Shown here in pieces: positions 5,012 to 36,113 of a stretch of 36,539 bases of DNA. The first letter of the stretch is position 1. The number at the start of each line of letters is the position of its first letter. Both the position numbers and the translations under genes were made by a program. The notes under the pieces were generated by a model. That model saw only the letters and a list, made by a program, of their open reading frames with translations, searched no databases and was not told where the DNA came from. Where the stretch lies: contig JBOGDY010000001.1 in the NCBI GenBank assembly GCA_050742955.1, forward strand, positions 1 through 36,539, read 5' to 3'. Source of the stretch: Actinomycetes bacterium (GTDB lineage Bacteria; Actinomycetota; Actinomycetes; JACCUZ01).

Positions 5012-5114
5012 GCCGGACGTGTCCCGGACTACCCGGCGAGGGTGATCCCCGCGCCGCTCGGCTGGTGTCCTATCCAGCCGGGCGTCACCGAATCGGCGGC
5101 GTCCGGTCCTGGAT

Positions 5115-5342: not shown

Positions 5343-5434
5343 ATTTCCTCCTGGGAGTCGTGGCGCTGGCGAGTCCTGGAACCTGGCCGGCACCGCTGAT
5401 CCGCGTCGGAGTCGATCAGGGGCAGGCGGGTGTC

Positions 5435-7711
5435 GTGAGCTCTTCCGAAGAGCCGGGACACGGGGGTGAGGCAACACCGGCGTCAGCACCGGTGGGCCTC
5501 AGCGAGACCAGGTTCCATCCCCCACGCCAGCGGGCTGGCTGGGTACAGCGCTCTGCCCTGATAGACCGGATTGTCGCCTCCGCGGACCGTCGGCTCGTGC
5601 TCGTTGCCGCGCCTGCGGGTTACGGAAAGACCACGGCCGTTGCTCAGTGGCGTGCGTCCAGCGACACCAGTCGTGCCTTCGCATGGGTTTCGCTGGACGC
5701 TGGCGACAACGACCCAGCACGGCTCTGGTCGCACATCCTGCAAGCCCTCTACCCCATTCTCCCGAGGATGCAGGAACGCGTCTCCGGACTGCTTCGGCGA
5801 CACGGTGAGAACGTCGAGCAGGCGGTGCTGCCCGAGTTGATCGACACGCTCGGGCAAGCGGACCGCCGGCTCGTTCTGCTGCTCGACGACTTTCACTGCC
5901 TGACCGAGATGCGGTGCCAGCGCCAGGTCGACTTCCTGCTCCACAACCTCCCGCCGTTGGCCCAGCTCGTGATCGTGACCCGGGCGGATCCGCTGCTGCA
6001 TCTGGGTCGGCTACGGGTCGAGGACCAGCTTCTGGAGATCCGGGTCGATGAGCTGCGCTTCGGCCCCGATGAGGCCTCGGCGCTCCTGGCGACCCACGGC
6101 GTACGCCTCTCCGACCCTGCGCTGGGACGCCTGGTCGCCGCGACGGAAGGATGGCCTGCTGCCTTGAGCCTGGCCGCCCTCTCCCTGGCGGGCCGTTCCG
6201 ACGCCGACCACCTCGTCGATGACCTGGCCGCCGACAACCGTTACATCGGCGACTACCTCACCGAGGAGGTGCTCGAGAGGGAGGGCGAGGCAGTCCGCAG
6301 GTTCGTCTACTGCGCGTCCATCCTCGAGCGCTTCAATGCGCCGCTGTGTGACTTCCTGCTCGGCACTAGCGACTCCCAGACGCTCATCGAGCGGATCGAG
6401 CACTCCAACCTGTTCCTCGTGCCGCTGGACGGCGAGGGCGGGTGGTTCCGCTTTCACAACCTGTTCGCCACCGTGGCGCGGGCTCGGCTCGCGGCGGCCG
6501 AGCCCGACCTGGTGCCGACCTTGCACAGGCGCGCTGTCGAGTGGTTCAGCCGCGAGGGACTCGTCGACGAGGCCGTCGAGCACGCCTTGGCCGTCGGAGA
6601 CGTCGATGCCACCGTCGCCCTGGTGACGGCGCACCGGATGCGTTACGTCACCGAGGGCAGGATCCTCACCCTGCACGGATGGTTGCGGGCGTTGGGCAGG
6701 CCAGCTCTGGACGCGAACCCGGCGGCCGGGGTCATGACCGCGTGGATCGCTGCGGTGTGCGGGGACCTGCACACGATGGAGGAGCGGCTGAACGCGCTGG
6801 ACCCCGCACCAGACATCGGGCCGTTGCCCGACGGCAGCCCTTCGGTGGAGTTTTCGATCGCGATGCTGCGCGGGTCGTTCGGTTTCGATGGGCCGGTGGA
6901 GATGCTGGCCGCCGCGCGAAGGGCGGTCGTGCTGGCGCCGGATGAAGGATCCCCTTGGTGCGCGTCCGCCCACCTGGTCCTCGGCAATGCCCTGCTCCTC
7001 GTCGGCGACGACGCAGGCGCAGAAGGCTGGCTGCGCCGCGTCCTCGCCAGCACGGTGGCACCGCCGTTGACGCGGATCGCCGCGTTTGCCCTGCTCTCCT
7101 TCGTGGAGCTCGACCGACGGCACGTCGAGGACGGCACGGAGCTGGCCGAGACGTCGCTGCGGATCGCGCAGGAAGAAGGCTTCACCGACACGCCGCAGGC
7201 GTCTCTGGCCTACACCGCGCTCGGCCGCGCGCGCGCCGAGACCGGCCACCTCGAGGATGCGCTTCCCGTTCTCGAGCACGGTCTGGCCCTGCGGCGGCAG
7301 ATGGCGAACCTCAGCCCCTGGCCCACTATCCGCCACGCCCTAGTGATGGCTCCCGTGCTGATGGCGCTCGGCCGGCCGGCTCCGGCGCACGAGCTCGTCG
7401 ACGAGGTCGACCGTCTCCTGGGTCGATGGACCGGCGGGACGGAGGCGCTGCGGGACCAGCTCGCTCGGGTGGAGGAGGCGATGCAGGCCCTTTCGCGGGT
7501 GCGGCCGCGGCCTGTGGCGGAGCCTCTGACCGATCGGGAGGAGTCCGTCCTGCGGCTGCTCCTGAGCAGACTCACCCTGCGGGAGATCGCCGGAGAGCTC
7601 TACGTCTCGCACAACACGGTCAAGACGCATGCGCGGATGGTGTATCGCAAGCTGGGGGCGTCGTCCCGAGCAGAGGCTGTCGACATCGCCCGTAGGCGCG
7701 GGCTGGTCTGA
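5435..7711 (+). CDS. LAL/MalT-type large ATP-binding LuxR-family transcriptional regulator.
   Basis: ORF 5042..7711. It has Walker A AAPAGYGKTT, Walker B-like LVLLLDDFH, a long helical/TPR-like middle and a C-terminal LuxR HTH (LTDREESVLRLL...EIAGELYVSHNTVKTHARMVYRKLG). The start is uncertain: GTG 5435 is chosen, GTG 5492 is also possible. The region 5042-5434 is occupied by the small membrane gene in another frame. Confidence 0.82.
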   Translation: MSSSEEPGHGGEATPASAPVGLSETRFHPPRQRAGWVQRSALIDRIVASADRRLVLVAAPAGYGKTTAVAQWRASSDTSRAFAWVSLDAGDNDPARLWSHILQALYPILPRMQERVSGLLRRHGENVEQAVLPELIDTLGQADRRLVLLLDDFHCLTEMRCQRQVDFLLHNLPPLAQLVIVTRADPLLHLGRLRVEDQLLEIRVDELRFGPDEASALLATHGVRLSDPALGRLVAATEGWPAALSLAALSLAGRSDADHLVDDLAADNRYIGDYLTEEVLEREGEAVRRFVYCASILERFNAPLCDFLLGTSDSQTLIERIEHSNLFLVPLDGEGGWFRFHNLFATVARARLAAAEPDLVPTLHRRAVEWFSREGLVDEAVEHALAVGDVDATVALVTAHRMRYVTEGRILTLHGWLRALGRPALDANPAAGVMTAWIAAVCGDLHTMEERLNALDPAPDIGPLPDGSPSVEFSIAMLRGSFGFDGPVEMLAAARRAVVLAPDEGSPWCASAHLVLGNALLLVGDDAGAEGWLRRVLASTVAPPLTRIAAFALLSFVELDRRHVEDGTELAETSLRIAQEEGFTDTPQASLAYTALGRARAETGHLEDALPVLEHGLALRRQMANLSPWPTIRHALVMAPVLMALGRPAPAHELVDEVDRLLGRWTGGTEALRDQLARVEEAMQALSRVRPRPVAEPLTDREESVLRLLLSRLTLREIAGELYVSHNTVKTHARMVYRKLGASSRAEAVDIARRRGLV

Positions 7712-7882
7712 AGTCACCTGAGGCCGCGTTCCGCAACGGGTCCCAGCCGGAACTGCCGGACAAAGCCGTGCACGGGACCACCACCCCGGCATTCCACTCA
7801 CCCGGATGAAATCTTCTCGCGGGGATGACATCTCACCCCGCACCGAGCGGGAATGAGAGCTGGGCAGTTTCTCGGGAGGACC

Positions 7883-10540
7883 ATGGCTCGGGTGCGTTCA
7901 GGGGTCTCCACGTCGCCGTCGGCGCTGGATCGGACTCACGACACGCGAGTCGACCTTCCGGCCCTGCCGGACTGGGTCGTGCCGCGACCCAGGCTGTCCG
8001 CGGTCCTGTCGGAGGGCACCGGCCGCCTCCTCACCGTCGTCACGGGGCCCGCAGGGGCGGGAAAGACGATCTCCGTCGCGTCATGGGCGGCGGACTCCGA
8101 CCACACAGGCCCGATCGTCTGGCTGAACTGCGGCGGGGTCGACGGCCCTCCTGCATTCTGGAACGACCTGCGCCAGCTGCTGGTGCGGGCCGGTCCGGGT
8201 GTCGGCCGCGACGCTGCGCCTGGGGACCGCGTAACCGCCGCCCGGGCGCTGTCCGACGAGCTGGCCCGCCTACCAGAGCCGTGCGTGGCCGTCCTAGACG
8301 ACTTCCACCTGGTTGGCGAGCGGGAGATCTTCGACGGGCTCGACGATCTTCTGCAGCGGACGCATGGCAACCTCCGACTCGTGCTGGTCTCTCGGACCGA
8401 CCCGGAGCTGGCCCTGCACCGCTACCGGCTGGCCGGCGAGCTCACCGAGCTGCGTGCCGCGGACCTCGTCCTCCGGCGGGACGAGACAGCACTTCTCCTG
8501 GCCCAGCACGGAGTGCGGCTGTCTGATCAGCGGCTGGACACCCTGCTGGCGCGGGCGGAAGGCTGGGCGGCCGGCGTGCGACTCGCCGCCCTGTCGCTGC
8601 AGGCCCATCCTGATCCGGCGTCGTTCACCGAGGCGTTCGCCCAGACCGATCAAGCTGTCTCGGACTACCTGTTCCAGGAGGTCTTCGCGCGAGTCCCACG
8701 CGCCGTCCGCGACTTCCTCCTACGTACGAGCGTTGTCGACGAGCTGCACCCCGGGCTGGCCCGGGCTCTCGCCGGCGATGGCACCGGCGTGGACCTGCAG
8801 CTCATCGAGCGAACGAACACGTTCCTCCAACGCGGTCCGGACGGCTCCTACCGCTATCACTCCTTGTTCTCCACGGCCGCCAAGGCCCAGCTGCAGCATG
8901 ACGCGCCCGGCCTTGAGGCCGACCTCAACGCCCGCGCCGCCCGGTGGTACGCGGACCACGACGCACTGCCGCAGGCCGTGCATCACGGTGCCATCGCGGG
9001 CGAGTGGGAGTGGGTGGCAGGCCTGGTAGTGGGGTCGGTCGCGGTGCCGGGCCTCTTGGTGGGCGACCCGGACCACCTGCTTTCCGATCTCAGGCAGCTC
9101 CCTTCGAGCGAGTGGGCGCGTCCTGACTCCCTCCTGCTGACCAGTGCCCTCGCCTCCGTGGACGAACGGGATACGACGGCCGCCCTCACCCTGCATCGCG
9201 CGGAATCCCTGCAGTCCGCACCTGACAACAGCACCCTGCCGGCGTTGGTCACCGCTTCGGTCCTTCGGCTCGTGGCCGCCAGGCGGCTGGGGCTCGTCGA
9301 CGAGGGACTTGCCGAAGCGGAGGACCTGCGCACCTCGGCCGCAGGTCTTCCTCCCGCCGTCCAAGCGGCGAGACCGGAGCTGTTCGGTTTCCTGCTCGCG
9401 CACCGCGGGACCTTCGAGTTGTGGAGGGGCTGGTTCGACGAGGCGGCCGCCACCCTGTCGGCCGGTGCCCGCGTCCTCGACGACTGGCCGACATCCCGGC
9501 ACCTGCGCGACGACTGCCTCGGCCAGCTGGCCCTCCTGCACGCCATCAGAGGCCATCTCGTGCAGGCCGACGCTGTGGGTCGCCAGGTGACCGTCGGGCC
9601 GGCGGGCGCCGGAGCCTCGGGTCTGACCCTTGAGGCGGAGCTCGCACTGGCGTGGTGTCACATCGAGCGGGCGGAGGTGGCCAGCGCGCGTCGACGGCTG
9701 GACCGGGTGCGCGACGCCCTGCGCGAGCACCCCAACCCCATGATGGATGTCGCCCACTGTGTCGCCGAGGTCCGCCTGCTCGGACTCACCGGCGACCTGC
9801 AGGCCGCTCTCGAGGTGTTCTCGTCACGGCACCGGCAGGGTGCGCCGACCGCCTGGCTGGACAACCAGCTGGTCATCGCAGGTGCGGAGGCGCTGGCATC
9901 GTTCGGTGAACCCCACCAGGCCCTGGCGACCGTCGCGCGGCACGCGGAGAAGTCGTCGATCGAGGCGGCAGTGCTGACCGCCCGCGTCAGGCTGGCGCTG
10001 GGTGACCTGCGCGGGGCCCGGTCAGCCCTGGCCTCCGCCCTGCCGAGGATCGTGGATGCCCCGGTGGGTGTCCGCGTCGATGCATGGCTGCTGGAGGCTC
10101 ACCTGGCCTTCGACGAGGGGCGGGTCGAGAGGATGCACGTGCTGCTGGAACGTGCACTGCGTGCCGGCGCAGCGGAAGACCTCCGGCGCCCGTTCGGTCG
10201 GGCGGGTCCCTGGCTGCGGCGGGCGATCCGGCTGGACACGGACCTGCTGCGCTCCTGGCGGGCGTTCGTCGCGCCGTCGCTCGCGGACTCCCCGATCCCC
10301 GAGCCGCGTCACGAGCCGTCGCCTGTGAGCGGTCCGAGCCCGCTGCCCGAGCCCCTGACGGACCGGGAGCAGGAGGTGCTCACCCTCCTCGCGGAGTTCC
10401 TCTCGACAGAGGAGATCGCCGGGGCGCTCTTCCTTTCGGTGAACACGGTCAAGACCCATCTCAAGAGCCTGTATCGCAAGCTAGGCGCCGGGCGGCGTGT
10501 CGACGCAGTGCGCACCGGTCGTGATCTCGGACTCTGCTGA
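7883..10540 (+). CDS. LAL/MalT-type large ATP-binding LuxR-family transcriptional regulator, second tandem paralogue.
   Basis: ORF 7853..10540. ATG 7883 is preceded by GGGAGGA. It has Walker A TGPAGAGKTI, Walker B VAVLDDFH and a C-terminal LuxR HTH (LTDREQEVLTLL...EIAGALFLSVNTVKTHLKSLYRKLG). Confidence 0.88.
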   Translation: MARVRSGVSTSPSALDRTHDTRVDLPALPDWVVPRPRLSAVLSEGTGRLLTVVTGPAGAGKTISVASWAADSDHTGPIVWLNCGGVDGPPAFWNDLRQLLVRAGPGVGRDAAPGDRVTAARALSDELARLPEPCVAVLDDFHLVGEREIFDGLDDLLQRTHGNLRLVLVSRTDPELALHRYRLAGELTELRAADLVLRRDETALLLAQHGVRLSDQRLDTLLARAEGWAAGVRLAALSLQAHPDPASFTEAFAQTDQAVSDYLFQEVFARVPRAVRDFLLRTSVVDELHPGLARALAGDGTGVDLQLIERTNTFLQRGPDGSYRYHSLFSTAAKAQLQHDAPGLEADLNARAARWYADHDALPQAVHHGAIAGEWEWVAGLVVGSVAVPGLLVGDPDHLLSDLRQLPSSEWARPDSLLLTSALASVDERDTTAALTLHRAESLQSAPDNSTLPALVTASVLRLVAARRLGLVDEGLAEAEDLRTSAAGLPPAVQAARPELFGFLLAHRGTFELWRGWFDEAAATLSAGARVLDDWPTSRHLRDDCLGQLALLHAIRGHLVQADAVGRQVTVGPAGAGASGLTLEAELALAWCHIERAEVASARRRLDRVRDALREHPNPMMDVAHCVAEVRLLGLTGDLQAALEVFSSRHRQGAPTAWLDNQLVIAGAEALASFGEPHQALATVARHAEKSSIEAAVLTARVRLALGDLRGARSALASALPRIVDAPVGVRVDAWLLEAHLAFDEGRVERMHVLLERALRAGAAEDLRRPFGRAGPWLRRAIRLDTDLLRSWRAFVAPSLADSPIPEPRHEPSPVSGPSPLPEPLTDREQEVLTLLAEFLSTEEIAGALFLSVNTVKTHLKSLYRKLGAGRRVDAVRTGRDLGLC

Positions 10541-18230: not shown

Positions 18231-20932
18231 TCAGCGCAGGCGGCGCAGCTCCGGCAACGGCCCCTCGGGCGTCGGAGCGAGGCGCAGCCGTACGTCGGTG
18301 GCGACCGCGCCCGTGCGGCTGGCCATGACGGGGTTCAGGTCGAGCTCGGCGACCTCCGGCACGTCGTCGGCCAGCCTCGCGACGCGCAGCAGCAGGTCGG
18401 ACAGGGCGTCGACATCGCAGCGGGGTGAGCCGCGGTAGCCGAAGAGCAAGGGACTGCACCGCAGGTCGCGCACCATCGCGGCCGCATCGACATCGGTGAG
18501 GGGCAGGATGCGGAACGCCTGGTCACCCAGGACTTCCGTCCAGACGCCACCCATCCCGAGCACCAGGACGGGACCGAAGGTGGGCTCTTGGACCACGCCG
18601 ACGAGCAGCTCGACCTGACCGGCCAACATCGGCTCGACGAGGACGGAGCCGTCGCCAACCTCAGCGACGCGCTCGAAGGCCGTGCGCACCTCGTCGTCGT
18701 CGCCCAGGTTCAGGGCGACCCCGCCGACGTCGCTCTTGTGGACGACGGCCGGATCGGCCGTCTTCAGGACGACGGGATAGCCGATCGACCTGGCCGCCTC
18801 CACTGCGCCCACGGCGTCCGTGGCGCGCCGAAGGGAGACCATCTCGATTCCGTAGGTGGCGAGAAGCTCGCGCGCCGTTTCGGCCGGCAGCCAGCCGCCC
18901 TCCGGCCGGCCCGCCAGTGCTCGTGCCACGACGCCCCGGGCCTCGGCCGCGCGGATCCCGGCCAGGTCCGGCACCACCCCACGACTGGATCGACGCCAGC
19001 GCCCGTAGCGCACGGCGTGGCCGAGGGCACGCACCGCCGACTCCGGGAACTGGTAGACCGGGACCGGCCGCGCCCCCTTCTCGTCCAGCAACGGCGCCGA
19101 ATCCGGACGACCCAGGACCACGGCGACCGTGGGCAGCACGCTCCTCGCGACGACATCGAGCATGGCGTCGGGATCGTTGGCCCGGGTCGCGGCGACGACG
19201 GCGACCACCGCATCGACCTCGCCGCTGCCGGCCACCTCTTCGAGTGCTGCCGACAGGTCGCGGGCCGTCGCACCTGCGCCGAGATCGATGGGGTTGTCCT
19301 GCCCGCGCGGCCCGGGCAGCCGCTGCCGCAACGCCTCGGACAGGATGGGGACCTCGAGACCCGCCGACTGGGCGGCATCGCTGGCCAGGACGCCCGCCCC
19401 ACCCGCGTTGCCGATCACGGCGATCCTCCCACCATCGGGAACGGGTTGGACGTCCAGGAGCCGGGCGGTGTCAATCAGATCCTCGACGGTGTCCAGGCGC
19501 AGCACACCGGCCTGCGCGAAGAGTGCGTCGACGGCGGTGTCGGGGGAGGCAGCCGCTGCCGTGTGGGAGCGTCCGGCCCGGCGCCCTCCGGCCGACCGAC
19601 CGCCCTGACGACCAGGACAGGCTTGGTCGCGGACACCCGCCTGGCCAGCCGGGCGAACTTACGGGGGTTGCCCAGGGACTCGAGGTAGAGAGCGATCACG
19701 TGCACACGCTGGTCGTGCCACCAGCGCAGCAGGAGGTCGTTGCCGCTTACGTCGGCCTTGTTCCCGAGCGAGACCATGCTGGCGACACCGAGCCGGGCGC
19801 GACTCGCGACATCGACGAGAGCGATGGCGACCGCGCCCGACTGCGCGGCGATGGCCAGGTGGCCGGGCTGTGGGCGGGTAGGCGCGAACCAGGCCTCGAG
19901 CGACACCTCGGGGTCGGTGTTGAGCAACCCGATGCAGTTCGGGCCCACCAGCCGCGTACCGCTGGTCCGAGCCGATCGCACCAGCCGCTCCTGCAGCTGG
20001 AGACCGGCCCCGCCCAGCTCGGCCAGCCCCGAGGACAGGATGACTACGGCCCGGACGCCGGCCCGTCCGCAGTCGTCGATCACGTCCTCGAGCGCCGCCA
20101 CGGGCACGGACACGACGGCCAGATCCACCTGACCGGGGATCTCGCTGACGGTGGGGTAGGCGGTCAGTCCTGCGACCTGGCGGGCCCGCGGGTTGACCGG
20201 GTAGACGCTCCCGGCGAAATGACCGGCCACGATGCTGCTCAGCACCTCGTGACCGACGCTGCCCGGGCGACGGCTGGCGCCCACGACGGCCACCGTGCGC
20301 GGTTCGAGCAATGGGTGCAGGGACGCAAGCTCGGCCCGCTCCTCGCGCGTGTCCATCGCCAGGAGCGTCTCCTCGTCTGCGGTGGTGGCGAGCCGGAACC
20401 GCGAGACGCCGTCGGCGAGGGAGCTCCGGCTGCGTAGCCCCGAGTCGGCAAAGACTGCGGCCATCCGCCGGTTGTCGACCAGCACGTCGCCGACCAGCTC
20501 GCGGACGCCGACCGACCGGGCCGCGGCGGCAAGGTGCTCGAGGAGCAGAGTGCCCACGCCCTCACCCTGGTGCGCGTCCTCCACGAGCAGCGCGACCTCC
20601 GCCTCGTCGTCACCGGTCCGCTCGAAGCCCGCGACTGCGACCACCACGCCGCCGAGGAGTGCGACCAGGGCAGCGTGGTCCCGGTCCGTCGGCCTCACCA
20701 CGCTCTCCACGTAGTCGTCGGCGACATTCCGGTTGAGGGCGAAGAACCTGAAGTAGAGGCTGCGGTCGGTGACGCGGGAGTTCAGGGCCCGGAGCGCATC
20801 GGCGTCGGCTCGGGTGACGGGCCGGATCCGGACGATCTGCCCCTTGGCGGTGAGCGCCTCGCACCCGGTGGGCGGCGTGTCCACGGGCGTCAGCCCGGTG
20901 CCCGGACGCGCGCCGGTCTCGGTCGGGATCAC
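18231..20932 (-). pseudogene. PatA-like GNAT acetyltransferase / NDP-forming acyl-CoA synthetase fusion, interrupted by an apparent 1-nt frameshift near 19600-19612.
   Basis: ORF 19475..21121 encodes GNAT (QGEGVGTLLLEHL), a CoA-binding domain (VAVVGASRRPGSVG) and a ligase-CoA domain. ORF 18231..19505 encodes the ATP-grasp part. The third frame reads continuously GGRSAGGRRAGRSHTAAAAASPDTAVDALFAQAGVLRLDTVEDL, joining the two. The proposed start GTG (20932) overlaps the upstream stop as GTGA. Confidence 0.75.
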
Positions 20933-21699
20933 GGCCGTCGCTCCGTCCGCGAGGCGCGTAGGGCGGGCACGACGACCATGGCGACACCCGTCAACATGCC
21001 AAGGGCGCCGGCGACGAGCAGGCCCGCCGCCACATCGTCGAGGAGGGGGACCGTGGCAGCGGCCCGCACCCGGACGGCGATCCCCGGCACAGCGTCCTGG
21101 TTCATCGTGACGATGGTCCACGACCCGTCACGCGGCCGCCACGTCACGCTCTGCGGGCCCGTGCCGACGGACTGGGCGACCCAGATGTCGGCCGTCTCCG
21201 GCAGCTGCCGGGGAGGCCCTCCCGGGTGGTCCACGCGGATGCGACCGTTGAACGGCAGGTCGGCGAAGGTCGCGTGCCGCACGCCCTCGAGATATCTCGC
21301 GGCGTCGGCGGTGCGAGCGATGCCCAGGAACAGGAGACGCCCGGGGTCGGCTGGGGTGACCTGCACCCTGACCGTGCCCACCAGCCTGTCCACACCAGGT
21401 CCCCAGCCAGCCTGTCGGAGATCCATCGGACCTCCGTCCACTGCAAAGCCGGCGGTGGCGAAGGACTCGGAGCCGAACGACAGGAAGCCGGCCGCGTCCC
21501 GTTGGGTCCGGTCCACGAGCAGCGCAGCAGCGCCGGCCACGAGCAGCACCAGCCCGACGATGCTCGAGATGTTCCCGACGACCACCGACGCCACCCGGCC
21601 CGCCGTCCACCCACGGCGCGACCGGTGCCCCGAACGCCCGGAGCCGGGCGGTGGTACCGCGGCCGCCGGTGGCCCATACGCCGGGGGCGCGGTCGTCAT
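20929..21699 (-). CDS. Membrane protein of unknown function: N-terminal Pro-rich tail, a TM helix, a ~190-aa extracytoplasmic domain and a C-terminal TM helix.
   Basis: ORF 20929..21708. ATG 21699 lies 9 nt after AAGGAG. TM segments are VVVGNISSIVGLVLLVAGAAALLV and AAGLLVAGALGMLTGVAMVVV. Confidence 0.65.
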   Translation of the reverse strand: MTTAPPAYGPPAAAVPPPGSGRSGHRSRRGWTAGRVASVVVGNISSIVGLVLLVAGAAALLVDRTQRDAAGFLSFGSESFATAGFAVDGGPMDLRQAGWGPGVDRLVGTVRVQVTPADPGRLLFLGIARTADAARYLEGVRHATFADLPFNGRIRVDHPGGPPRQLPETADIWVAQSVGTGPQSVTWRPRDGSWTIVTMNQDAVPGIAVRVRAAATVPLLDDVAAGLLVAGALGMLTGVAMVVVPALRASRTERRP

Positions 21700-21748
21700 C
21701 GGCACCATCTCCTTCGTCGAGCTCAGGGGGATCCGGCGGCGCCGGCCG

Positions 21749-23355: not shown

Positions 23356-23369
23356 GGGACCTAGGTCCC
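23356..23369. promoter_or_regulatory. DosR/DevR-type box B1 in the divergent ADH-operon / USP-ABC-operon promoter region.
   Basis: Perfect 14-bp palindrome GGGACCTAGGTCCC with a GGGAC-N4-GTCCC core. It lies 111 nt upstream of the ADH ATG and 93 nt upstream of the USP ATG. Confidence 0.7.
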
Positions 23370-28115: not shown

Positions 28116-28129
28116 GTGACCTTCGGCCC
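28116..28129. promoter_or_regulatory. DosR/DevR-type box B4 upstream of the CBS-BON-PNPOx gene.
   Basis: GTGACCTTCGGCCC, centred 76 nt upstream of ATG 28198. The 16-mer GTGACCTTCGGCCCTG is repeated exactly, in reverse complement, at 33553-33568. Confidence 0.55.
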
Positions 28130-29336: not shown

Positions 29337-30230
29337 TCACGCCGTTGGCCGGTGGTCGTGCACGATGGCGACCGGGCTGGTCGCGCGGTGGAGGACGCCG
29401 TGGCTCACCGACCCGAGCAGCAGGCTTCGCAGCGCGCCCCTGCCGCGGCATCCGACGACGACGAGTCGCGCTTCGCGTGCTGCCGCGACGAGCGCCGGGG
29501 TGGCGTGCGACTGAAGAGTCTTCAGCTCGACAGGCACAGCGGGGTGCTTCTCGCGCCAGGGGGCCAGGGTCTCGTCCAGCATCGCCAGCTTCCTCTCGGC
29601 CGTGAGGTCCGGGTCGGGCATGACCGGGATCCGGATCGCGGGGCCGTTCGGCAGCGGCACGGTCCACGTGTGCAGGGCCGTCAGCGGTTCACCGGTCTCA
29701 GCGGCGTACCGGAAGGCGTAGTCGATCGCCGACTGCGCGGACGGTGACGTCTCGACGCCGACGACGACGCCGTGTCGGGTGGGCTCCGCCTCCCCCGGCA
29801 CGGGGACCGCCACCACCGGAGCGTGCGCGTGCGTGGCCACGTGCAGGGTCGTGGATCCGATGACAAGGTCGGCGAACCCACCCGTGCCGCGCGTGCCCAG
29901 CACGACAGTGTCCGCGTGTCCGGACTCGTCGACCAGCGCATCGACGGCCGAGCCCGCCTCGAGTCGCGTCGAGACCTGAACCCCGGGGTAGGCCTGACGG
30001 GCCTGTGCCTCTGCTGCGTTCATCATCCGCTGCATCGCCTCGCGCAGGCCGTTCCCGAAGTCCGAGTAGTAGCCGCCGGCGCGGATGTCGTAGATGGACG
30101 GCTCGTAGGCGTGTGCGAGCCGCACCGGCGCCTGTCGTCGGGCGGCGAGCTCCAGGCCCCAGGCCAGTGCTGCTTCGCTCGGCGGCGATCCGTCGATGCC
30201 GATGACGATTGGTTCGCGTGCGTCGCTCAT
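29337..30230 (-). CDS. Tandem universal stress protein (two UspA domains).
   Basis: ORF 29337..30287. The internal ATG at 30230 is preceded by AGGAGG. It has duplicated USP modules (VIGIDGSPPSE...VLGTRGTGGFADLVIGSTTLHVATHAHAPVVAV and VVGVETSPSA...VVGCRGRGALRSLLLGSVSHGVLHRATSPVAIV). Confidence 0.9.
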   Translation of the reverse strand: MSDAREPIVIGIDGSPPSEAALAWGLELAARRQAPVRLAHAYEPSIYDIRAGGYYSDFGNGLREAMQRMMNAAEAQARQAYPGVQVSTRLEAGSAVDALVDESGHADTVVLGTRGTGGFADLVIGSTTLHVATHAHAPVVAVPVPGEAEPTRHGVVVGVETSPSAQSAIDYAFRYAAETGEPLTALHTWTVPLPNGPAIRIPVMPDPDLTAERKLAMLDETLAPWREKHPAVPVELKTLQSHATPALVAAAREARLVVVGCRGRGALRSLLLGSVSHGVLHRATSPVAIVHDHRPTA

Positions 30231-30333
30231 GACGCCTCCTTGCCTGCCGAAGCGCCGGGCATCCGCTGCCCGTACGGACCAGCACACTCCGTCGCCCGCC
30301 CTGCAGACCAGGGCCGATCGCCGCCCCGCCGGG

Positions 30334-30347
30334 GTGACCTTGGTCCC
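30334..30347. promoter_or_regulatory. DosR/DevR-type box B2, on the USP-proximal side of the USP/GH65 divergent region.
   Basis: GTGACCTTGGTCCC, one mismatch from the perfect palindrome of B1 apart from the central dinucleotide. It is centred 110 nt upstream of the USP ATG (30230). Confidence 0.6.
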
Positions 30348-30370
30348 GCGCGGCCGGTCGTCGGCGCGAT

Positions 30371-30384
30371 AGGACCAAGGTCAC
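30371..30384. promoter_or_regulatory. DosR/DevR-type box B3, on the GH65-proximal side of the same divergent region.
   Basis: AGGACCAAGGTCAC, which matches the reverse complement of B2 at 13 of 14 positions. It is centred 125 nt upstream of the GH65 ATG (30503). Confidence 0.55.
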
Positions 30385-30502
30385 GGCATTTGCCTCCGTG
30401 GGGCCCTTGGCGGCGAGCCCTTGCGGCCGGTTACGTGAGGCGTGACCGTCCGTTCCCGCCGAGGATCTGTGGGCAGGTGGCTACGTTGTCGAGGGGTGTC
30501 GG

Positions 30503-32911
30503 ATGACCGAGTGGCTGCTGCGCTACGAGGGGTTCGAGCCCGAGGAGGAACGGGTTCGCGAGGTGCTGTGCACGCTCGGTAACGGCCGGTTCGCCACCCG
30601 TGCTGCCGCTCCTGAGTCCTGCGCCGACGGCGTGCACTACCCGGGCACCTACGCAGCAGGCATCTTCAACCGCGTCCCGGCCGACATCGAGGGCCATCAC
30701 GTCGAGCACGAGAGCATGGTCAACCTGCCGGACTGGCAGTCCCTCCGTTTTCGGGTGGAGGACGGGGACTGGCTGACCCCGTCCAGTCCCACGACGACCG
30801 ACTACGTCCAGGAGCTGGACCTTCGGAGGGGCCTGCTGACACGACGGTTCCGCGTCGTGGACGGTGAGGGCCGGCGGACGGCAGTCGCTCAGCGCAGGTT
30901 CGTCTCGATGGCCGACCCGTTCGCCGCCGGCCTCGACGCGACGTTCGTGGCGGAGAACTGGTCCGGACGCCTGGTTGTGCAGTCCGGCATCGACGGAGAT
31001 GTGGCCAACCGTGGAGTCGCCCGTTATACCGGGCTCGGGGACGTGCACCTGCGGGTGACCGGGGCGGAACGGCTCGGCTGCTCCGTGGTCGCGCTCGATG
31101 TCGAGACGCGCCAGTCCCGGGTTCGGGTGAGCATGGCCGCTCGACACCGAGTGCTGCTGGACGGACAGGTCTCAGCGACCCCGCAACGACCCCGGACAGT
31201 CCGTAAGAGCGGCTACATCGGGCTGGAGTTCTGCCTCGGCGTACGAGAGGGCGAGCAGCACACCCTCGAGAAGGTCGTGGCCGTCTACACCTCGCGTGAC
31301 CGAGCCGTGAGCGAACCAGGCGCCGCGGCGCGGACCGAGGCAGGGAGCCTGCCGGAGCTCGATCATCTCCTCTCACGTCACGTGCTCGCGTGGGACCACC
31401 TCTGGGAACGGTGCTACGTCCGGATCGACGCGGCCGAGTCGGCGACTCGCGCGCTCAACCTGCACCTGTTCCACCTGCTCCAGACGGTCAGCCGGCACAG
31501 CATGGAGCTCGATGTCGGCATCCCCGCCAGGGGACTGCACGGCGAGGCGTACCGCGGCCATGTGTTCTGGGACGAGATCTTCGTGTTCCCGTTCCTGAAC
31601 CTGCGAATGCCGGAGCTTGCCAGGGCCCTGGTGCTCTACCGCTGGAGGCGGCTGCCCCAGGCCCGGGTGGCGGCCAGGGAGGCCGGGTTCCGGGGCGCGA
31701 TGTTCCCCTGGCAGAGCGGGTCCGACGGTCGTGAGGAGGCCCCCGCGGTGCACCTCAACCCACGGTCTGGCCACTGGATCACCGACAACTCGCACCTGCA
31801 ACGGCACATCAACGTGGCCGTGGCCTACAACACGTGGCGGTACTACGAGGCCAGCGGCGACCGTGACTTCCTTTCCCAGTTCGGCGCCGAACTGATCCTG
31901 GACATCGCGCAGTTCTGGGCGAGCGCGGCAAACTACGACCGGGTCGGCGACCGCTACGACATCCGCAATGTGATGGGTCCGGATGAGTACCACGACGGCT
32001 ACCCCTGGCGGGATCGTCCCGGCCTGGACAACAACACGTACACGAACCTGATGGTGGTGTGGACCCTGCGCAGAGCGCTCGCCTGCATCGCGCTCCTGCC
32101 CGACCGACGCCGGTCGGAGCTGCTGAGCCTATTGGGTATCCGGCGGGAGGACGTGGAGCGCTGGGAGCACATGACTCGGAAGATGCGGCTGTGCTGGGTC
32201 GCCGCCAACGTGCTTGCCCAGTTCGAGGGCTTCGAGCGGCTGCGTCCGTTCCCGTGGACCGAGTACGTCGAGCGGTATGGCGACATCACCAGGCTGGACC
32301 GGATCCTGGAGGCCGAGGGCGACTCGCCCAACAACTACCAGCTCGCGAAGCAGGCCGACGTACTGATGCTCTTCTACCTGCTCTCTGCGGACGAGCTGGC
32401 GGACCTCCTGCACCGGCTCGGATACCAGTACACGCCCCGGCTGATCCCCAGCACGGTGGACTTCTACCGTCGGTGCACCTCCCACGGCTCCACACTCTCC
32501 AAGGTCGTCCATGCCTGGGTCATGGCGCGAAGCGACCGCCCGGCGGCCTGGCAGTTCTTCCTCGACGCCCTCGAGGCGGACGTCGCGGGCCATCTTGGCG
32601 GCACGACGGGCGAGGGGATCCATCTGGGCGCGATGGCCGGCACCCTTGACCTCCTCCAACGCGCCTTCACCGGTCTGGAGACGCGCGGCGAGGTGCTGCA
32701 CCTCGAGCCGTCCCTGCCCGACGAGCTCGCCTCTATGAGCTTCCGACTCCATTACCGCCACCATCACGGCCTAGAGGTCTATGTCGACCATGACCGGGTC
32801 ATCATCAGCGGGCGGGCCCACCCCGCGCCACCGTTGACGGTGCGGGTCCGCGGCGAGGACCACCGCCTCGACCCGAGCGGTGCCGTCGAGGTGCCGCTCA
32901 CGTCTCGTTGA
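30503..32911 (+). CDS. Glycoside hydrolase family 65 protein (maltose/trehalose/kojibiose phosphorylase-type).
   Basis: At 802 aa it has the typical GH65 length. The N-terminus WLLRYEGFEPEEERVREVLCTLGNGRFATRAA and the catalytic-region motif GHVFWDEIFVFPF are characteristic of actinobacterial GH65 proteins. Confidence 0.88.
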   Translation: MTEWLLRYEGFEPEEERVREVLCTLGNGRFATRAAAPESCADGVHYPGTYAAGIFNRVPADIEGHHVEHESMVNLPDWQSLRFRVEDGDWLTPSSPTTTDYVQELDLRRGLLTRRFRVVDGEGRRTAVAQRRFVSMADPFAAGLDATFVAENWSGRLVVQSGIDGDVANRGVARYTGLGDVHLRVTGAERLGCSVVALDVETRQSRVRVSMAARHRVLLDGQVSATPQRPRTVRKSGYIGLEFCLGVREGEQHTLEKVVAVYTSRDRAVSEPGAAARTEAGSLPELDHLLSRHVLAWDHLWERCYVRIDAAESATRALNLHLFHLLQTVSRHSMELDVGIPARGLHGEAYRGHVFWDEIFVFPFLNLRMPELARALVLYRWRRLPQARVAAREAGFRGAMFPWQSGSDGREEAPAVHLNPRSGHWITDNSHLQRHINVAVAYNTWRYYEASGDRDFLSQFGAELILDIAQFWASAANYDRVGDRYDIRNVMGPDEYHDGYPWRDRPGLDNNTYTNLMVVWTLRRALACIALLPDRRRSELLSLLGIRREDVERWEHMTRKMRLCWVAANVLAQFEGFERLRPFPWTEYVERYGDITRLDRILEAEGDSPNNYQLAKQADVLMLFYLLSADELADLLHRLGYQYTPRLIPSTVDFYRRCTSHGSTLSKVVHAWVMARSDRPAAWQFFLDALEADVAGHLGGTTGEGIHLGAMAGTLDLLQRAFTGLETRGEVLHLEPSLPDELASMSFRLHYRHHHGLEVYVDHDRVIISGRAHPAPPLTVRVRGEDHRLDPSGAVEVPLTSR

Positions 32912-32921
32912 GGCAGTTTGG

Positions 32922-33326
32922 TCACAGGTCGTGCTCGGCCAGCTCGGCCAACGTGGCCGTGACCAGCCAAGCAGGGGTCAGGTCCCTGGCCGACATCAGA
33001 CGCAGCTCGAGCGGGATGAGCACGTCGCGCTGCAGCGACCGGAGCCGCTCCTCACCCACGTTCTGACCGACCAGCTCGCGCGCCACGAAGGCGCGGGCAA
33101 CGCGCCAGTCGAGGGCTTCCATCTCCTCCGGCACGGGGTCGGCCGCCAGCTCGGCCACGCGGCTCGCCGAGCCGTGTGCCACCGCGTTGATCCACATCCA
33201 TGGTGCGACCTGGCCGCTTTCACCACGCGACCGGAGCCGCTCGAGGTAGCGACCCCCGAGAAAGGCCTCGACCTCATCGGCCAGCCCCGAGCCGACCTTC
33301 GGTGCGGCCCAGCGAAGGAAGGACAT
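32922..33326 (-). CDS. Hypothetical protein with an ambiguous start.
   Basis: ORF 32922..33437. Candidate starts are ATG 33326, GTG 33338 (9 nt after GGAGGG) and ATG 33437. No motif was recognised. GC3 is moderately high throughout. Confidence 0.45.
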   Translation of the reverse strand: MSFLRWAAPKVGSGLADEVEAFLGGRYLERLRSRGESGQVAPWMWINAVAHGSASRVAELAADPVPEEMEALDWRVARAFVARELVGQNVGEERLRSLQRDVLIPLELRLMSARDLTPAWLVTATLAELAEHDL

Positions 33327-33554
33327 CCAGCTTCGCACCGTCCTGCTCCCTCCTGAGGCGCCCTGTGACTGGCACCAGCACATCGCGCAGGCTGACCCCG
33401 CCACCACGGGCAGATGCCCCGACGCTGATGGGGCCAACGTCCTCCGTGCACGGGACGGACGGCACGGGGCACACAGCGAGAGGCGGGAGGGTCCACCGCC
33501 GCTCAGGCAGCGGGCCGAGACATCGATTCCAGCCCGTCCGCGGTTCGCGAAACA

Positions 33555-33568
33555 GGGCCGAAGGTCAC
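33555..33568. promoter_or_regulatory. DosR/DevR-type box B5 upstream of the hypothetical gene at 32922.
   Basis: GGGCCGAAGGTCAC is the reverse complement of B4 (GTGACCTTCGGCCC). The exact 16-mer is shared with 28116-28131. Confidence 0.5.
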
Positions 33569-34579: not shown

Positions 34580-34593
34580 AGCCCTACGGACAC

Positions 34594-34622
34594 GGGAGGT
34601 CGCGGCTGGGGCGCGACCTCCC
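34594..34622 (+). terminator. Strong stem-loop after hsp20.
   Basis: Perfect 11-bp stem GGGAGGTCGCG / CGCGACCTCCC with a 7-nt loop, 15 nt after the stop codon. Confidence 0.6.
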
Positions 34623-34827
34623 GCCCGGGCGCACGATCGAGGAGGTGCCAGCCATGGGTGAGAAGGAGCAACACGAGGCGAGCGCCGAAGCACGCCGCCA
34701 TCTGACGTCCCGGCCTACCGAGTCGGGCAAGCACGAGGACCTGGTCCAGCGGCGACTCGGTGTGGCCTTCTATCGCGAGGTTCACGGTCGGGACCAACAG
34801 CCCAGCCAAGCGGACCCAGGAGGAACC

Positions 34828-35022
34828 ATGCACGCAGTCCCGGGCGAGCGCATCATCGTGAGGCGCAGCCACCTCGGCGAACCTGCCAGCGACGGCGAAA
34901 TCATCGAGGTACGGGGGCCCGATGGGAGTCCCCCGTTCCTGGTCCGGTGGTCCGACACCGGGAACGAGGCACTCGTCTTCCCCGGGTCGGACGCGGAGAT
35001 CCACCACTGCGGCGACCGCTGA
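34828..35022 (+). CDS. DUF1918 domain protein.
   Basis: ORF 34645..35022. ATG 34828 is preceded by AGGAGGA. The sequence GERIIVRRSHLGEPASDGEIIEVRGPDGSPPFLVRWSDTGNEALVFPGSDA matches the DUF1918 pattern. The in-frame alternative ATG 34654 also has a GGAGG SD, but the extension has lower GC3. Confidence 0.75.
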   Translation: MHAVPGERIIVRRSHLGEPASDGEIIEVRGPDGSPPFLVRWSDTGNEALVFPGSDAEIHHCGDR

Positions 35023-35077
35023 GCGGCAACCAGCGGTGCGCGCGTGGCGACCATCCGGGCCGCTCGGCCGTAGAGTT

Positions 35078-35091
35078 GGGATCTTCGGCCC
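35078..35091. promoter_or_regulatory. DosR/DevR-type box B7 upstream of the Acg-family nitroreductase gene.
   Basis: GGGATCTTCGGCCC shares its CTTCGGCCC half with B4 and B5. It is centred 45.5 nt upstream of ATG 35130. Confidence 0.5.
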
Positions 35092-35129
35092 TCTCCTACT
35101 CCGAACCCCGATGAGCGAGACTGGGCCAC

Positions 35130-36113
35130 ATGACGACAGGACAAGCCGACTTCACCGCCGCGGTCGACCTGGGCCGACTGGCTCCGTCGGTGCACAACAC
35201 CCAGCCCTGGCTCTTCCATGCGGAAGATGACGTTCTCATCCTGCGACGCGACAGCGCCCGGAGCCTTCCAGTGCTCGACCCCACGTTCCGCCAACAGACC
35301 ATCAGCTGCGGTGCGGCGTTGCACCTGGTCCGGCTTGGACTACGGCTGCAGGGCTTCGATGTCGTCGTGCAGCCCCACCCGGTCCCGGGTGACAGCACGA
35401 TCCTCGCCGCCGTCCGGGCAGTGCCCGGCGCAGCCGCAACAGCCGAAGAGGTCGTGCTGGAGCACGCCGCGCGGCACCGCCACACGCAGCGAGAACCCTT
35501 CGACCCGCAACCCGTGGACGCGGAGACCGTCACCGCCATGCGCGATGCCGCGCAGCAGGAGGGCGCGTGGGTGCGGTTCCTGACCGAGCCCGCCGAGCAG
35601 ATCGCGCTGACCGTGCTGCTGTCGCACGCGGACGAGGCCGAGGAGGCGGACGAGGCGTATCGCGAGGAGCTTTCCGCGTGGACGCACCGTCCGTCTAGCG
35701 AAGGCGACGGCGTTCCACCGCAGGCAGCTCCCCCCGTGCGCGGGCGGGCGAGCAACGTGCGGCTACGGGACTTCAGCGCGCCGGCCGACGATGGCCAGGA
35801 GACGCCTCGGGTCACCGAGGACGACCCGGCGCCTCCAGCGGAGCACCCGTTGGTGGTGGTACTGGGGACGGCCGGCGACGGACCTGATGACTGGTTGGTG
35901 GCGGGACAAGCCCTCAGCACCCTGCTGTTGCACGCCGCCGTCGACGGCGTGCAGGCATCGCCCCTGGGTCAGGTGCTCGACCAGCCGTGGTCGCGGCGAC
36001 GGCTGGGTGGCGAGCTGAGGCTCGTGGGCTACCCCCAGATGGTGCTGCGGCTGGGCCACGCCCGGCCCGGCCCGGACACGCCGCGCCGCCCGATGACAGA
36101 CGTCCTGCGGTAG
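35130..36113 (+). CDS. Acg-family FMN-binding nitroreductase-like protein (Rv2032/Rv3131-type).
   Basis: It has the N-terminal signature APSVHNTQPW, a ~327-aa two-lobed nitroreductase-like layout and the C-terminal PQMVLRLGHA motif typical of the Acg family. Confidence 0.86.
   Translation: MTTGQADFTAAVDLGRLAPSVHNTQPWLFHAEDDVLILRRDSARSLPVLDPTFRQQTISCGAALHLVRLGLRLQGFDVVVQPHPVPGDSTILAAVRAVPGAAATAEEVVLEHAARHRHTQREPFDPQPVDAETVTAMRDAAQQEGAWVRFLTEPAEQIALTVLLSHADEAEEADEAYREELSAWTHRPSSEGDGVPPQAAPPVRGRASNVRLRDFSAPADDGQETPRVTEDDPAPPAEHPLVVVLGTAGDGPDDWLVAGQALSTLLLHAAVDGVQASPLGQVLDQPWSRRRLGGELRLVGYPQMVLRLGHARPGPDTPRRPMTDVLR

What the first reader, a model, noticed from the sequence alone, without database searches (positions are those of the whole stretch)
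30334..30384. Pair of boxes that are reverse complements of each other between the second USP gene and GH65
GTGACCTTGGTCCC (30334-30347) and AGGACCAAGGTCAC (30371-30384) each match the box consensus. They are also 13/14 reverse complements of one another, with centres 37 bp apart. There are two readings. They may be two regulator-dimer sites, one per divergent promoter. Alternatively they may form a 13-bp-stem cruciform or RNA hairpin with a 23-nt loop. This arrangement differs from the single shared site at 23356.
Basis: seen in the sequence. Interest (0 to 1): 0.65.

Follow-up and report, generated by a model that had tools for sequence, protein, structure and literature searches.

The report
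Two DosR-type boxes, back-to-back promoters
The inverted repeat is real, but it is best explained as two strong binding sites for a DosR/DevR-type dormancy regulator, one for each of two back-to-back promoters (stress protein gene and GH65 sugar enzyme gene), which is an ordinary layout for this well-known regulon and not a functional hairpin.

Summary
30334-30346 and 30372-30384 are a perfect 13-nt inverted repeat, with box centres 37 bp apart. The 13-bp stem would have a 25-nt loop, not 23.

The window is a 70% GC actinobacterial "dormancy island" (USPs, HSP20, Acg-type nitroreductase, CBS, PNPOx, ADH, P-type ATPase). The boxes belong to the DevR/DosR-OsdR box family (GGGACC-WW-GGTCCC). A matrix trained without them ranks them 2nd and 5th in 36.5 kb, and the seven best sites are all intergenic.

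Ten promoters were compared, from the window and from distant relatives. In nine of them, a -10-like T....T hexamer starts 46-48 nt beyond the strong box. That puts the strong box near -65 and a weak box or half-site near -43.5, which is the geometry measured for M. tuberculosis DevR.

Box 1 has this layout pointing left towards USP2. Box 2 has it pointing right towards GH65. The repeat therefore lies between the two predicted transcription starts and is probably not transcribed.

The complementarity stops at the box edges. It follows from two near-consensus sites facing opposite ways.

No orthologous intergenic region exists in the databases, and nothing has been tested experimentally. Verdict: a new member of a known kind, of low interest.

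The parts
30334..30347 (-). Box 1. Read towards USP2 it is GGGACCAAGGTCAC. Proposed distal (about -66) primary DevR/DosR-type site of the leftward USP2 promoter.
   Evidence: Ranks 2nd in the window with a matrix trained without it. The identical 14-mer, in the same orientation, lies upstream of a USP gene in L213. TGTGCT starts 48 nt beyond it.
30371..30384 (+). Box 2, AGGACCAAGGTCAC. Proposed distal (about -65) primary site of the rightward GH65 promoter.
   Evidence: Ranks 5th with the matrix. TTACGT starts 47 nt beyond it, the same offset as TACGTT and TACGGT in the ADH promoters.
30311..30324 (-). Putative secondary box S_L (plus strand GGGCCGATCGCCGC). Its centre is 23 bp from the centre of box 1, giving a predicted position of about -43.5 in the USP2 promoter. 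It contains the conserved GGCCCTGG element.
   Evidence: Matrix score is in the top 0.18% of window positions. It matches 13 of 16 bases of the Streptomyces OsdR consensus AGGGCCGATCGGCCCT (PMC5069765). This part is inferred, not shown.
30393..30406 (+). Putative secondary box or half-site S_R (CCTCCGTGGGGCCC). Its centre is 22 bp from the centre of box 2. Only the promoter-side half, GGCCC, is good.
   Evidence: top 3.8% only, so weak. It mirrors S_L about a dyad centre near 30359. Inferred.
30281..30286 (-). The -10-like hexamer TGTGCT of the USP2 promoter. The predicted start is near 30274, giving a leader of about 44 nt.
   Evidence: T(G/T)(T/G)GCT(G) lies 46-48 nt after the strong box in 6 USP promoters from at least 4 distinct metagenomic or MAG sources. 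Chance estimate.
30431..30436 (+). The -10-like hexamer TTACGT (or TACGTG at 30432-30437) of the GH65 promoter. The predicted start is near 30443, giving a leader of about 60 nt. A -35-like TTGGCG at 30407-30412 lies 18 bp upstream.
   Evidence: and reading. No canonical sigma-70 match was found, as expected for an activator-dependent promoter. Inferred.
29337..30230 (-). USP2, a tandem-domain universal stress protein.
   Evidence: Pfam Usp, E 1.1e-51. Start fixed at ATG 30230, preceded by AAGGAGG.
30503..32911 (+). GH65 glycoside hydrolase/phosphorylase.
   Evidence: Pfam GH65 N, m and C domains. The start codon context is conserved in orthologues.
23356..23369 (.). Perfectly palindromic box GGGACCTAGGTCCC, shared by the divergent ADH-operon and USP1 promoters. 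It shows the same regulon and the same -65 geometry on both sides.
   Evidence: ranks 1st. TACGTT lies 47 nt to the left and TGTGCT 46 nt to the right.
28116..28129 (+). Box GTGACCTTCGGCCC in the proximal (about -43.5) position before the CBS-PNPOx gene.
   Evidence: 3rd-4th, tied with 33555-33568. TACCGT starts 25 nt after it.
33555..33568 (-). The same 14-mer, in reverse complement, before the leftward ORF 32922-33437.
   Evidence: 3rd-4th, tied with 28116-28129.
35057..35091 (+). Tandem boxes GGGCCGCTCGGCCG and GGGATCTTCGGCCC, centres 21 bp apart, before the Acg-type nitroreductase gene.

Best explanation
The two boxes are two independent high-affinity ("primary") operator sites for a DevR/DosR-OsdR-type response regulator of the NarL family. 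That regulator is not encoded in this window.

The sites sit back to back in the 272-bp region between the divergent USP2 and GH65 genes.

- **Position.** Each box is centred about 65 bp upstream of its own outward-facing transcription start.
- **Recruitment (inferred).** A regulator dimer bound there is proposed to recruit a second dimer cooperatively. The second dimer would bind a weak box or half-site 22-23 bp further out, centred near -43.5 and overlapping the -35 region.
- **Activation (inferred).** That second dimer would activate RNA polymerase at a weak -10: TGTGCT for USP2 and TTACGT for GH65.
- **Overall layout.** The region reads S-P-(37 bp)-P-S, and both genes would be induced together with the rest of the island under hypoxia-type stress.
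- **Origin of the inverted repeat.** It is a by-product. Two near-consensus copies of a near-palindromic motif each keep the same orientation relative to their own promoter, so they face opposite ways.
- **Independence of the two sites (inferred).** At 37 bp (about 3.5 helical turns) the two inner dimers are out of phase, so they probably act independently.

Shown: the sequences, the motif membership, and the conserved box-to-hexamer geometry.

Inferred: the identity of the regulator, the secondary sites, the transcription starts, and activation.
For: **Gene context.** The window carries USP x2, HSP20, an Acg-type nitroreductase, CBS, CBS-PNPOx, ADH, a P-type ATPase and DUF1918. This parallels the M. 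tuberculosis DevR and Streptomyces OsdR regulons (PMC3177182 Table 1; PMC5069765).

**Motif.**
- The boxes lie between the Mtb half-site G4G5G6A7C8T9 and the OsdR consensus AGGGCCGATCGGCCCT.
- GGGMCNNNNGKCCC at 9 or more of 10 positions occurs 10 times in 4.3 kb of intergenic DNA and 12 times in 32 kb of coding DNA.
- A matrix trained without boxes 1 and 2 ranks them 2nd and 5th. The top 7 sites are all intergenic.

**Geometry.**
- In 9 of 10 promoters a T....T hexamer starts 46-48 nt after the strong box. The set is window USP2, USP1, GH65 and ADH, plus L209 USP and ADH, and L211, L213 and L214 USP.
- The background probability is 0.064 per promoter, so 9 or more of 10 has P about 2e-10. The offsets were chosen after seeing the data.
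- This puts the strong box near -65 and the neighbouring weak box near -43.5. Mtb has -63.5 and -42.5, with the proximal box edge 33-34 bp from the start.
- Both box 1 and box 2 have such a hexamer on their outward side.

**Regulator.**
- Relative L209 encodes a DevR orthologue. It matches PDB 3C3W at E 1.8e-75, with the recognition helix EKTVKNYVS identical.
- L209 also encodes a GAF-GAF-HisKA_3 kinase next to an ADH/USP pair carrying the same boxes. A perfect box lies upstream of the regulator gene itself.
- L213 has a regulator, CBS and USP, with a box identical to box 1.

**Extent of the mirror symmetry.** Similarity is confined to the functional elements, not the whole arms.

**Precedent.** In Mtb the divergent USP gene Rv2005c and Rv2006/otsB1 are DevR Class I promoters with P-S and S-P boxes.
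Against: - No regulator gene of this type lies in the window, and no binding or expression data exist.
- The transcription starts are predicted only from conserved hexamers, and those hexamers are poor matches to TANNNT.
- The secondary sites are weak. S_R is only in the top 3.8% of positions, and the USP1 equivalent is not significant by the matrix.
- GH65 orthologues elsewhere mostly lack boxes.
- A conserved GH65-specific element at 30463-30477 could be the real GH65 promoter. In that case box 2 would lie about 105 bp upstream of that start.
- No orthologous USP2-GH65 intergenic region was found. The only other copies are 100% identical.
- Mtb DevR promoters are described as having adjacent tandem boxes. 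Two primary sites 37 bp apart is not a described class.
Confidence: 0.75

Rival explanations
1. The repeat works as a nucleic-acid structure. One form is an RNA hairpin in a long 5' leader of USP2 or GH65, acting in attenuation, stability or translation control. The other is a DNA cruciform extruded under supercoiling that modulates the divergent promoters.
For: The 13-bp G+C-rich stem folds stably. As RNA the minimum free energy is -44.4 kcal/mol, z -2.7. As DNA it is -28.6 kcal/mol, z -4.5, with 0 of 200 shuffles folding as well. Part of the spacer can also pair.
Against: - The complementarity coincides exactly with the two protein-binding boxes and does not extend into the flanks.
- Conserved -10-like hexamers lie outward of both boxes, so neither predicted transcript contains both arms.
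- There is no Rfam family, no T-tract and no terminator.
- Single boxes of the same sequence occur elsewhere without a partner: 23356 in the window, and in L084, L209, L211 and L213.
- A 25-nt spacer disfavours cruciform extrusion. This last point is general knowledge, not tested here.
Confidence: 0.05
2. The pair is one composite operator. Both boxes are bound together by a tetramer or a looped higher-order DevR complex, and both are needed for both promoters. This would resemble the shared boxes of Mtb tgs1-Rv3131 or narK2-Rv1738.
For: In Mtb, all the characterised divergent DevR promoters discussed (narK2-Rv1738, tgs1-Rv3131) share their boxes, and all four narK2-Rv1738 boxes contribute to both genes. 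The whole region 30311-30406 has approximate dyad symmetry about 30359.
Against: - The 37-bp spacing is about 3.5 turns, so the two sites are out of phase.
- In Mtb, moving tgs1 boxes apart by +5 or +15 bp (to 26 or 36 bp) abolished cooperative binding.
- Each box has its own complete outward promoter layout at the same offsets as single-box promoters.
- Both boxes are strong sites that should not need help.
Confidence: 0.12
3. The boxes are bound not by a DevR orthologue but by another LuxR/GerE-type regulator. The candidates are the two large ATP-binding LuxR (LAL) regulators encoded in the window at 5042-7711 and 7853-10540.
For: Both carry C-terminal GerE helix-turn-helix domains and lie in the same island. 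No NarL-type response regulator is present in the window.
Against: - Their recognition helices read NTVKTH, against KTVKNY in DevR. They differ at two of the three positions I recall as base-contacting in DosR, K179 and N183 (residue roles are from memory of the 1ZLK structure).
- Relatives with the same boxes and the same gene types encode true DevR orthologues next to them, including an autoregulatory box.
Confidence: 0.06

Closest known systems
M. tuberculosis DevR (DosR) Dev boxes and regulon promoter architecture (Chauhan et al. 2011, PMC3177182)
   Same: - Near-palindromic box with GGGAC-type half-sites.
- Target genes of the same families: USP, HSP20/hspX, acg-type nitroreductases, a CBS protein, a P-type ATPase.
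- A strong site plus a weaker site 21-23 bp away.
- Inferred positions near -65 and -43.5, against -63.5 and -42.5 measured in Mtb.
- Divergent gene pairs controlled from one intergenic region, including a USP gene (Rv2005c) opposite otsB1 (Rv2006). From memory, Rv2006 carries a GH65-like part.
   Different: - The half-site is GGGACC/GGTCAC, not GGGACT.
- Here there are two primary boxes, not adjacent: 37 bp centre to centre and out of phase. They occupy the inner positions, with the putative secondary sites outside.
- Mtb divergent promoters share contiguous tandem boxes (P-S, P-S-P, P1-S1-S2-P2).
- Nothing here has been tested experimentally.
Streptomyces coelicolor OsdR/OsdK regulon (Urem et al. 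2016, PMC5069765)
   Same: An actinomycete outside the mycobacteria. The stress island is rich in USP genes, with a PNPOx target among others. The consensus AGGGCCGATCGGCCCT is of the same family. The putative secondary box at 30310-30325 matches it at 13 of 16 positions.
   Different: The strong boxes in this window are closer to GGGACCWWGGTCCC, intermediate between the Mtb and Streptomyces consensus sequences. The organism is an uncultured actinomycete, with best GH65 hits at 74% identity or less and USP hits at 57% or less.
narK2-Rv1738 divergent promoter of M. tuberculosis (Class III, four Dev boxes)
   Same: A four-site control region about 80-100 bp long between divergent dormancy genes, with two primary and two secondary sites.
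   Different: In narK2-Rv1738 the primaries are the outer sites. The four boxes are contiguous and mutually cooperative, and all act on both genes. Here the primaries are the inner sites, with a gap between them too short for another box.

Membership tests
DevR/DosR-OsdR-type operator (Dev box) | A 14-20 bp near-palindrome with a GGGAC-type half-site on each side (G4G5G6A7C8T9 in Mtb). | tested here: met
   Box 1 matches GGGACCNNGGTCCC at 11 of 12 specified positions and box 2 at 10 of 12. They rank 2nd and 5th in the window with a matrix trained on other sites.
DevR/DosR-OsdR-type operator (Dev box) | Location in promoter regions of dormancy or hypoxia-type genes, with enrichment in intergenic DNA. 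| tested here: met
   The top 7 matrix hits are all intergenic, next to USP, ADH, PNPOx, nitroreductase, DUF1918 and GH65 genes. Density is 6-fold higher in intergenic DNA.
DevR/DosR-OsdR-type operator (Dev box) | At least two adjacent boxes about 21-23 bp apart, with the proximal one overlapping -35 (edge 33-34 bp from the start). | tested here: inconclusive
   Weak boxes or half-sites lie 22-23 bp outward of each box, and the conserved -10-like hexamers fit the geometry. However, S_R scores poorly and no start site has been mapped.
DevR/DosR-OsdR-type operator (Dev box) | A cognate NarL-family regulator with the DevR recognition helix, and a GAF-domain sensor kinase, in the same genome. | not testable with these tools
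   Neither is encoded in the 36.5-kb window. Both are present next to homologous genes and boxes in relatives L209 and L213. The rest of this genome could not be read.
DevR/DosR-OsdR-type operator (Dev box) | Binding by the phosphorylated regulator, and induction under hypoxia, NO or CO. | not testable with these tools
   Experimental.
Structured RNA element (leader hairpin, attenuator or terminator) | It is transcribed, has a match to a known family or a T-tract, and its pairing is kept by covariation. | tested here: not met
   No Rfam match at E up to 1 and no terminator-like site. The predicted starts lie outward of both arms. Covariation is not testable, because the only other copies are identical.
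Cruciform-forming palindrome | A long perfect inverted repeat with a short spacer. | tested here: not met
   The arms are 13 bp with a 25-nt spacer. That such a spacer disfavours extrusion is general knowledge, not a computation made here.

The most novel reading that the evidence does not exclude
The inner-primary, out-of-phase P-(37 bp)-P layout may be a distinct architectural class of DevR-type divergent promoter. Two dimers on opposite faces of the helix, or a transient stem-loop or cruciform of the two boxes under the altered supercoiling of hypoxic cells, could couple or insulate the two promoters. That behaviour would differ from the contiguous tandem boxes of M. tuberculosis.
Probability: 0.06. 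Interest if true: 0.5.

Novelty: new member of a known kind. Interest (0 to 1): 0.2.

Why it matters
It shows that the DevR/DosR-OsdR dormancy regulon is recognisable in an uncultured soil actinomycete only distantly related to sequenced species. The box type and the -65/-43.5 promoter geometry both carry over. It adds a GH65 enzyme, probably acting on trehalose or maltose, to the predicted regulon, echoing Rv2005c-Rv2006 in M. tuberculosis.

The practical value is for annotation. An inverted repeat made of two copies of a palindromic operator facing opposite promoters should not be read as a hairpin.

It opens no new question, beyond the minor one of whether non-adjacent primary sites behave independently.

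Tried and rejected
1. **GH65 orthologue loci from species-representative genomes** (80 loci, 66% identity or less). Almost none has a USP neighbour or boxes upstream, so they gave no orthologous intergenic region.

2. **Closest GH65 proteins in metagenomes** (74% identity or less), with contexts. Their neighbours differ. Only L084 has a single perfect box. The alignment of upstream regions is uninformative for the boxes.

3. **Metagenome scan for GACCWWGGTC-N8-38-GACCWWGGTC**.
   - Only L143 carried homologues of the island's proteins.
   - L149 has a pair before cydA, while L200 is unrelated and L087 gave no family hits.
   - No spacing preference could be extracted.

4. **Other contigs carrying the identical USP2**. 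They are 100% identical in the region, so there is no variation to analyse and no covariation test.

5. **Whole-arm mirror alignment, to test for an inverted duplication**. Similarity is confined to the boxes and GGCCCT(T)GG, so a recent inverted duplication is rejected.

6. **Consensus sigma-70 promoter, terminator and Rfam scans**. Nothing was found.

7. **L029 (Actinoallomurus), a possible USP-GH65 neighbour pair**. It has two boxes 108 bp apart and a different layout, and was not pursued.

8. **Literature check that Rv2006 contains a GH65 part**. The papers read do not say so, and that statement rests on my memory.

Full report
**Observation.** The plus strand reads GTGACCTTGGTCCC at 30334-30347 and AGGACCAAGGTCAC at 30371-30384. 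The repeat finder gives arms 30334-30346 / 30372-30384, 13 nt, 100% complementary, with 25 nt between them. The centres are 37 bp apart, as stated. A 13-bp stem would have a 25-nt loop, because the innermost position of the 14-mers is the mismatch.

The window holds three perfect 13-nt inverted repeats with loops of 3-60 nt, against 0.25 expected in first-order Markov simulations. The repeat alone is therefore only moderately unusual window-wide. What makes it non-random is its place in a 272-bp intergenic region, and the fact that each arm is an independent top match to a motif found elsewhere.

**Surroundings.** The window is 70% G+C. The region lies between a tandem-domain universal stress protein gene (USP2, 29337-30230, minus strand, ATG preceded by AAGGAGG) and a GH65 gene (30503-32911, plus strand).

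Pfam annotation of the rest of the window gives:
- a P-type ATPase;
- an ADP-forming acyl-CoA synthetase-like pair;
- CBS proteins and a zinc ADH;
- a second USP and an ABC/FtsX pair;
- a CBS-PNPOx protein and HSP20;
- a DUF1918 protein and an Acg-type nitroreductase;
- two large LuxR-type (LAL) regulators.

This gene set is characteristic of the M. tuberculosis DevR/DosR regulon (Table 1 of PMC3177182) and of the Streptomyces OsdR island (PMC5069765).

**The boxes are members of the Dev-box family.**
- DevR contacts G4G5G6A7C8T9 in each half of a palindrome. The OsdR consensus is AGGGCCGATCGGCCCT. The window's sites (GGGACCTAGGTCCC, GGGACCAAGGTCAC, GGGCCGAAGGTCAC, GGGATCTTCGGCCC and others) lie between the two.
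- GGGMCNNNNGKCCC matched at 9 or more of 10 positions occurs 10 times in 4.3 kb of intergenic DNA and 12 times in 32 kb of coding DNA.
- I trained a symmetrised matrix on ten sites from the window and from relatives, leaving out boxes 1 and 2. It ranks box 1 second and box 2 fifth among all positions of the window, and the seven best hits are all intergenic.
- The octamer AAGGTCAC occurs four times, against 0.5 expected, always inside such a box.
- The same 14-mer as box 1, in the same orientation relative to a USP gene, occurs in an unrelated metagenomic contig, L213.

The near-identity of the two arms therefore follows from both being close to the family's commonest form.

**Promoter geometry.** I anchored ten promoters on their strong box. 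They were window USP2, USP1, GH65 and ADH; L209 USP, ADH and response-regulator gene; and L211, L213 and L214 USP.

- In nine of the ten, a T....T hexamer starts 46-48 nt after the box. It is TGTGCT or TTGGCT, followed by GG in most, in all six USP promoters. It is TACGTT, TACGGT or TTACGT in the ADH and GH65 promoters.
- The background chance of such a hexamer in three consecutive offsets is 0.064, so 9 or more of 10 has P about 2e-10. I chose the offsets after seeing the data, so this figure is optimistic.
- If the hexamer is the -10, the strong box is centred near -65. The element 22-23 bp downstream of it (G[GC]CCCTG in four of the six USP promoters, and GGCCCTTGG on the GH65 side) is centred near -43.5 and abuts a -35-like TGnC.
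- This matches the measured Mtb geometry. Boxes lie at -63.5 and -42.5 at tgs1-Rv3131, and the proximal box edge is 33-34 bp from the start in every mapped promoter.
- Other boxes in the window occupy the proximal position, with a -10-like hexamer 24-26 nt after them. These are PNPOx with TACCGT, the nitroreductase with GAGACT (apparently leaderless), and HSP20.

**Application to the finding.**
- Box 1, read leftwards, is followed by GCGGCGATCGGCCC (30324-30311, a 13 of 16 match to the OsdR consensus), then by TGTGCT at 30286-30281 and the USP2 start codon about 50 nt further on.
- Box 2, read rightwards, is followed by CCTCCGTGGGGCCC (30393-30406), TTGGCG, an 18-bp spacer and TTACGT at 30431-30436.
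- The region is thus S-P-(37 bp)-P-S, with a dyad centre near 30359 and predicted starts near 30274 (leftward) and 30443 (rightward).
- At the ADH-USP1 region, one perfectly palindromic box (23356) lies about 65 bp from both divergent -10 elements. The difference between the two regions is simply that here the two promoters are 37 bp further apart and each has its own primary site.
- A mirror alignment of the two arms shows similarity only at the boxes and the GGCCCT(T)GG element. That argues for selection on the elements and against a recent inverted duplication.

The secondary sites are the weakest link. S_L is in the top 0.18% of matrix scores, S_R only in the top 3.8%, and the USP1 equivalent is not significant. 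Degenerate secondary sites with one good half are described for Mtb, but here they remain inferred.

**The regulator.** None is in the window.
- The two LAL regulators have GerE domains, but their recognition helices read NTVKTH where DevR has KTVKNY.
- In L209, whose USP is 57% identical to USP2, an ADH-USP divergent pair with the same boxes sits next to a response regulator. It matches M. tuberculosis DevR (PDB 3C3W) at E 1.8e-75, with an identical recognition helix.
- L209 also has a GAF-GAF-HisKA_3-HATPase kinase, and a perfect GGGACCAAGGTCCC lies upstream of the regulator gene.
- L213 shows the same association.

I infer that this organism has a DevR orthologue elsewhere in its genome.

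**The structure reading.** The repeat would fold well as RNA (-44.4 kcal/mol, z -2.7) or as DNA (-28.6 kcal/mol, z -4.5), as any 13-bp G+C-rich repeat would. The following count against a function as a structure:
- The complementarity ends at the box edges.
- Both predicted starts lie outward of the arms.
- There is no Rfam match, T-tract or terminator.
- Both flanking genes diverge from the repeat, so no transcript ends there.
- The same box works alone elsewhere.
- The spacer is 25 nt.

**Cooperation between the two boxes.** In Mtb, lengthening the tgs1 box spacing from 21 to 26 or 36 bp abolished cooperative binding to the second site. A spacing of 37 bp, about 3.5 turns, is in that regime. 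Both sites here are strong and should bind on their own. A composite operator remains possible, and I give it about 0.12.

**Limits.**
- The only other copies of the region are identical.
- The nearest GH65 relatives (74% or less) and USP relatives (57% or less) sit in other contexts.
- A pattern scan of metagenomes was swamped by unrelated repeats.
- A conserved GH65-specific element (GGATCTGTGGGCAGG, 30463-30477), shared with orthologues that lack boxes, may be a second or alternative GH65 promoter. If it were the only one, box 2 would lie too far upstream to act in the way proposed.

**Verdict.** The hairpin or cruciform reading is not. This is a new member of a well-known kind of regulatory site, with a minor architectural variation: two non-adjacent primary sites in the inner positions. 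Interest is low.

Noticed in passing
window 30463-30477; L082, L083, L084 just upstream of their GH65 genes: A conserved element, GGAT(G)CTG(T)GGGCAGG, lies about 30-45 nt upstream of the GH65 start codon. It occurs in the window and in three orthologue loci that have different upstream genes. GGGCAG/GGGTAG resembles a SigF/SigB-type -10, so this may be a GH65-specific promoter or a leader element.
   Followed up: partly
window 28116-28129 and 33555-33568: The identical 14-mer GTGACCTTCGGCCC occurs twice, each time in the promoter-proximal (about -43.5) position. One copy precedes the CBS-PNPOx gene (ATG 28198, with TACCGT at 28154). The other precedes the leftward ORF 32922-33437, which has no Pfam match.
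   Followed up: partly
window 35057-35130: Tandem boxes 21 bp apart lie before the Acg-type nitroreductase gene. The -10-like GAGACT at 35118-35123 would put the transcription start at the A of ATG 35130, so the mRNA would be leaderless.
   Followed up: partly
window 34645-35022 and 34790-34803: A DUF1918 domain (Pfam E 2.7e-25) is encoded in the second half of this ORF, probably as a small gene starting at the internal ATG near 34830. A good box, GGGACCAACAGCCC (matrix rank 7), lies just upstream.
   Followed up: partly
window 34593-34623: A 12-bp G+C-rich perfect hairpin lies directly after the HSP20 stop codon. It has no T-tract and is likely an actinobacterial-style terminator.
   Followed up: no
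window 239-301 and 3843-3872: Two further perfect 13-nt inverted repeats lie inside coding DNA, in the sulfatase gene and the membrane-protein gene.
   Followed up: no
window 5042-7711 and 7853-10540: Two adjacent large ATP-binding LuxR-type (LAL) regulators (AAA, TPR and GerE domains) sit beside the stress island. Their targets are unknown.
   Followed up: partly
window 20929-21708 (minus strand): An ORF with high third-position G+C and no Pfam match overlaps the start of the GNAT/CoA-binding ORF 19475-21121. This may be a frameshift, a wrong start or an unannotated gene within the ADH-led operon.
   Followed up: no
L149 948-1000: A metagenomic contig has two boxes 43 bp apart (GAGACCTAGGTCAC ... 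GGGACCTTGGTCCC) immediately upstream of a cytochrome bd oxidase subunit I gene. This is another non-adjacent pair of Dev-like boxes before a hypoxia-related gene.
   Followed up: partly
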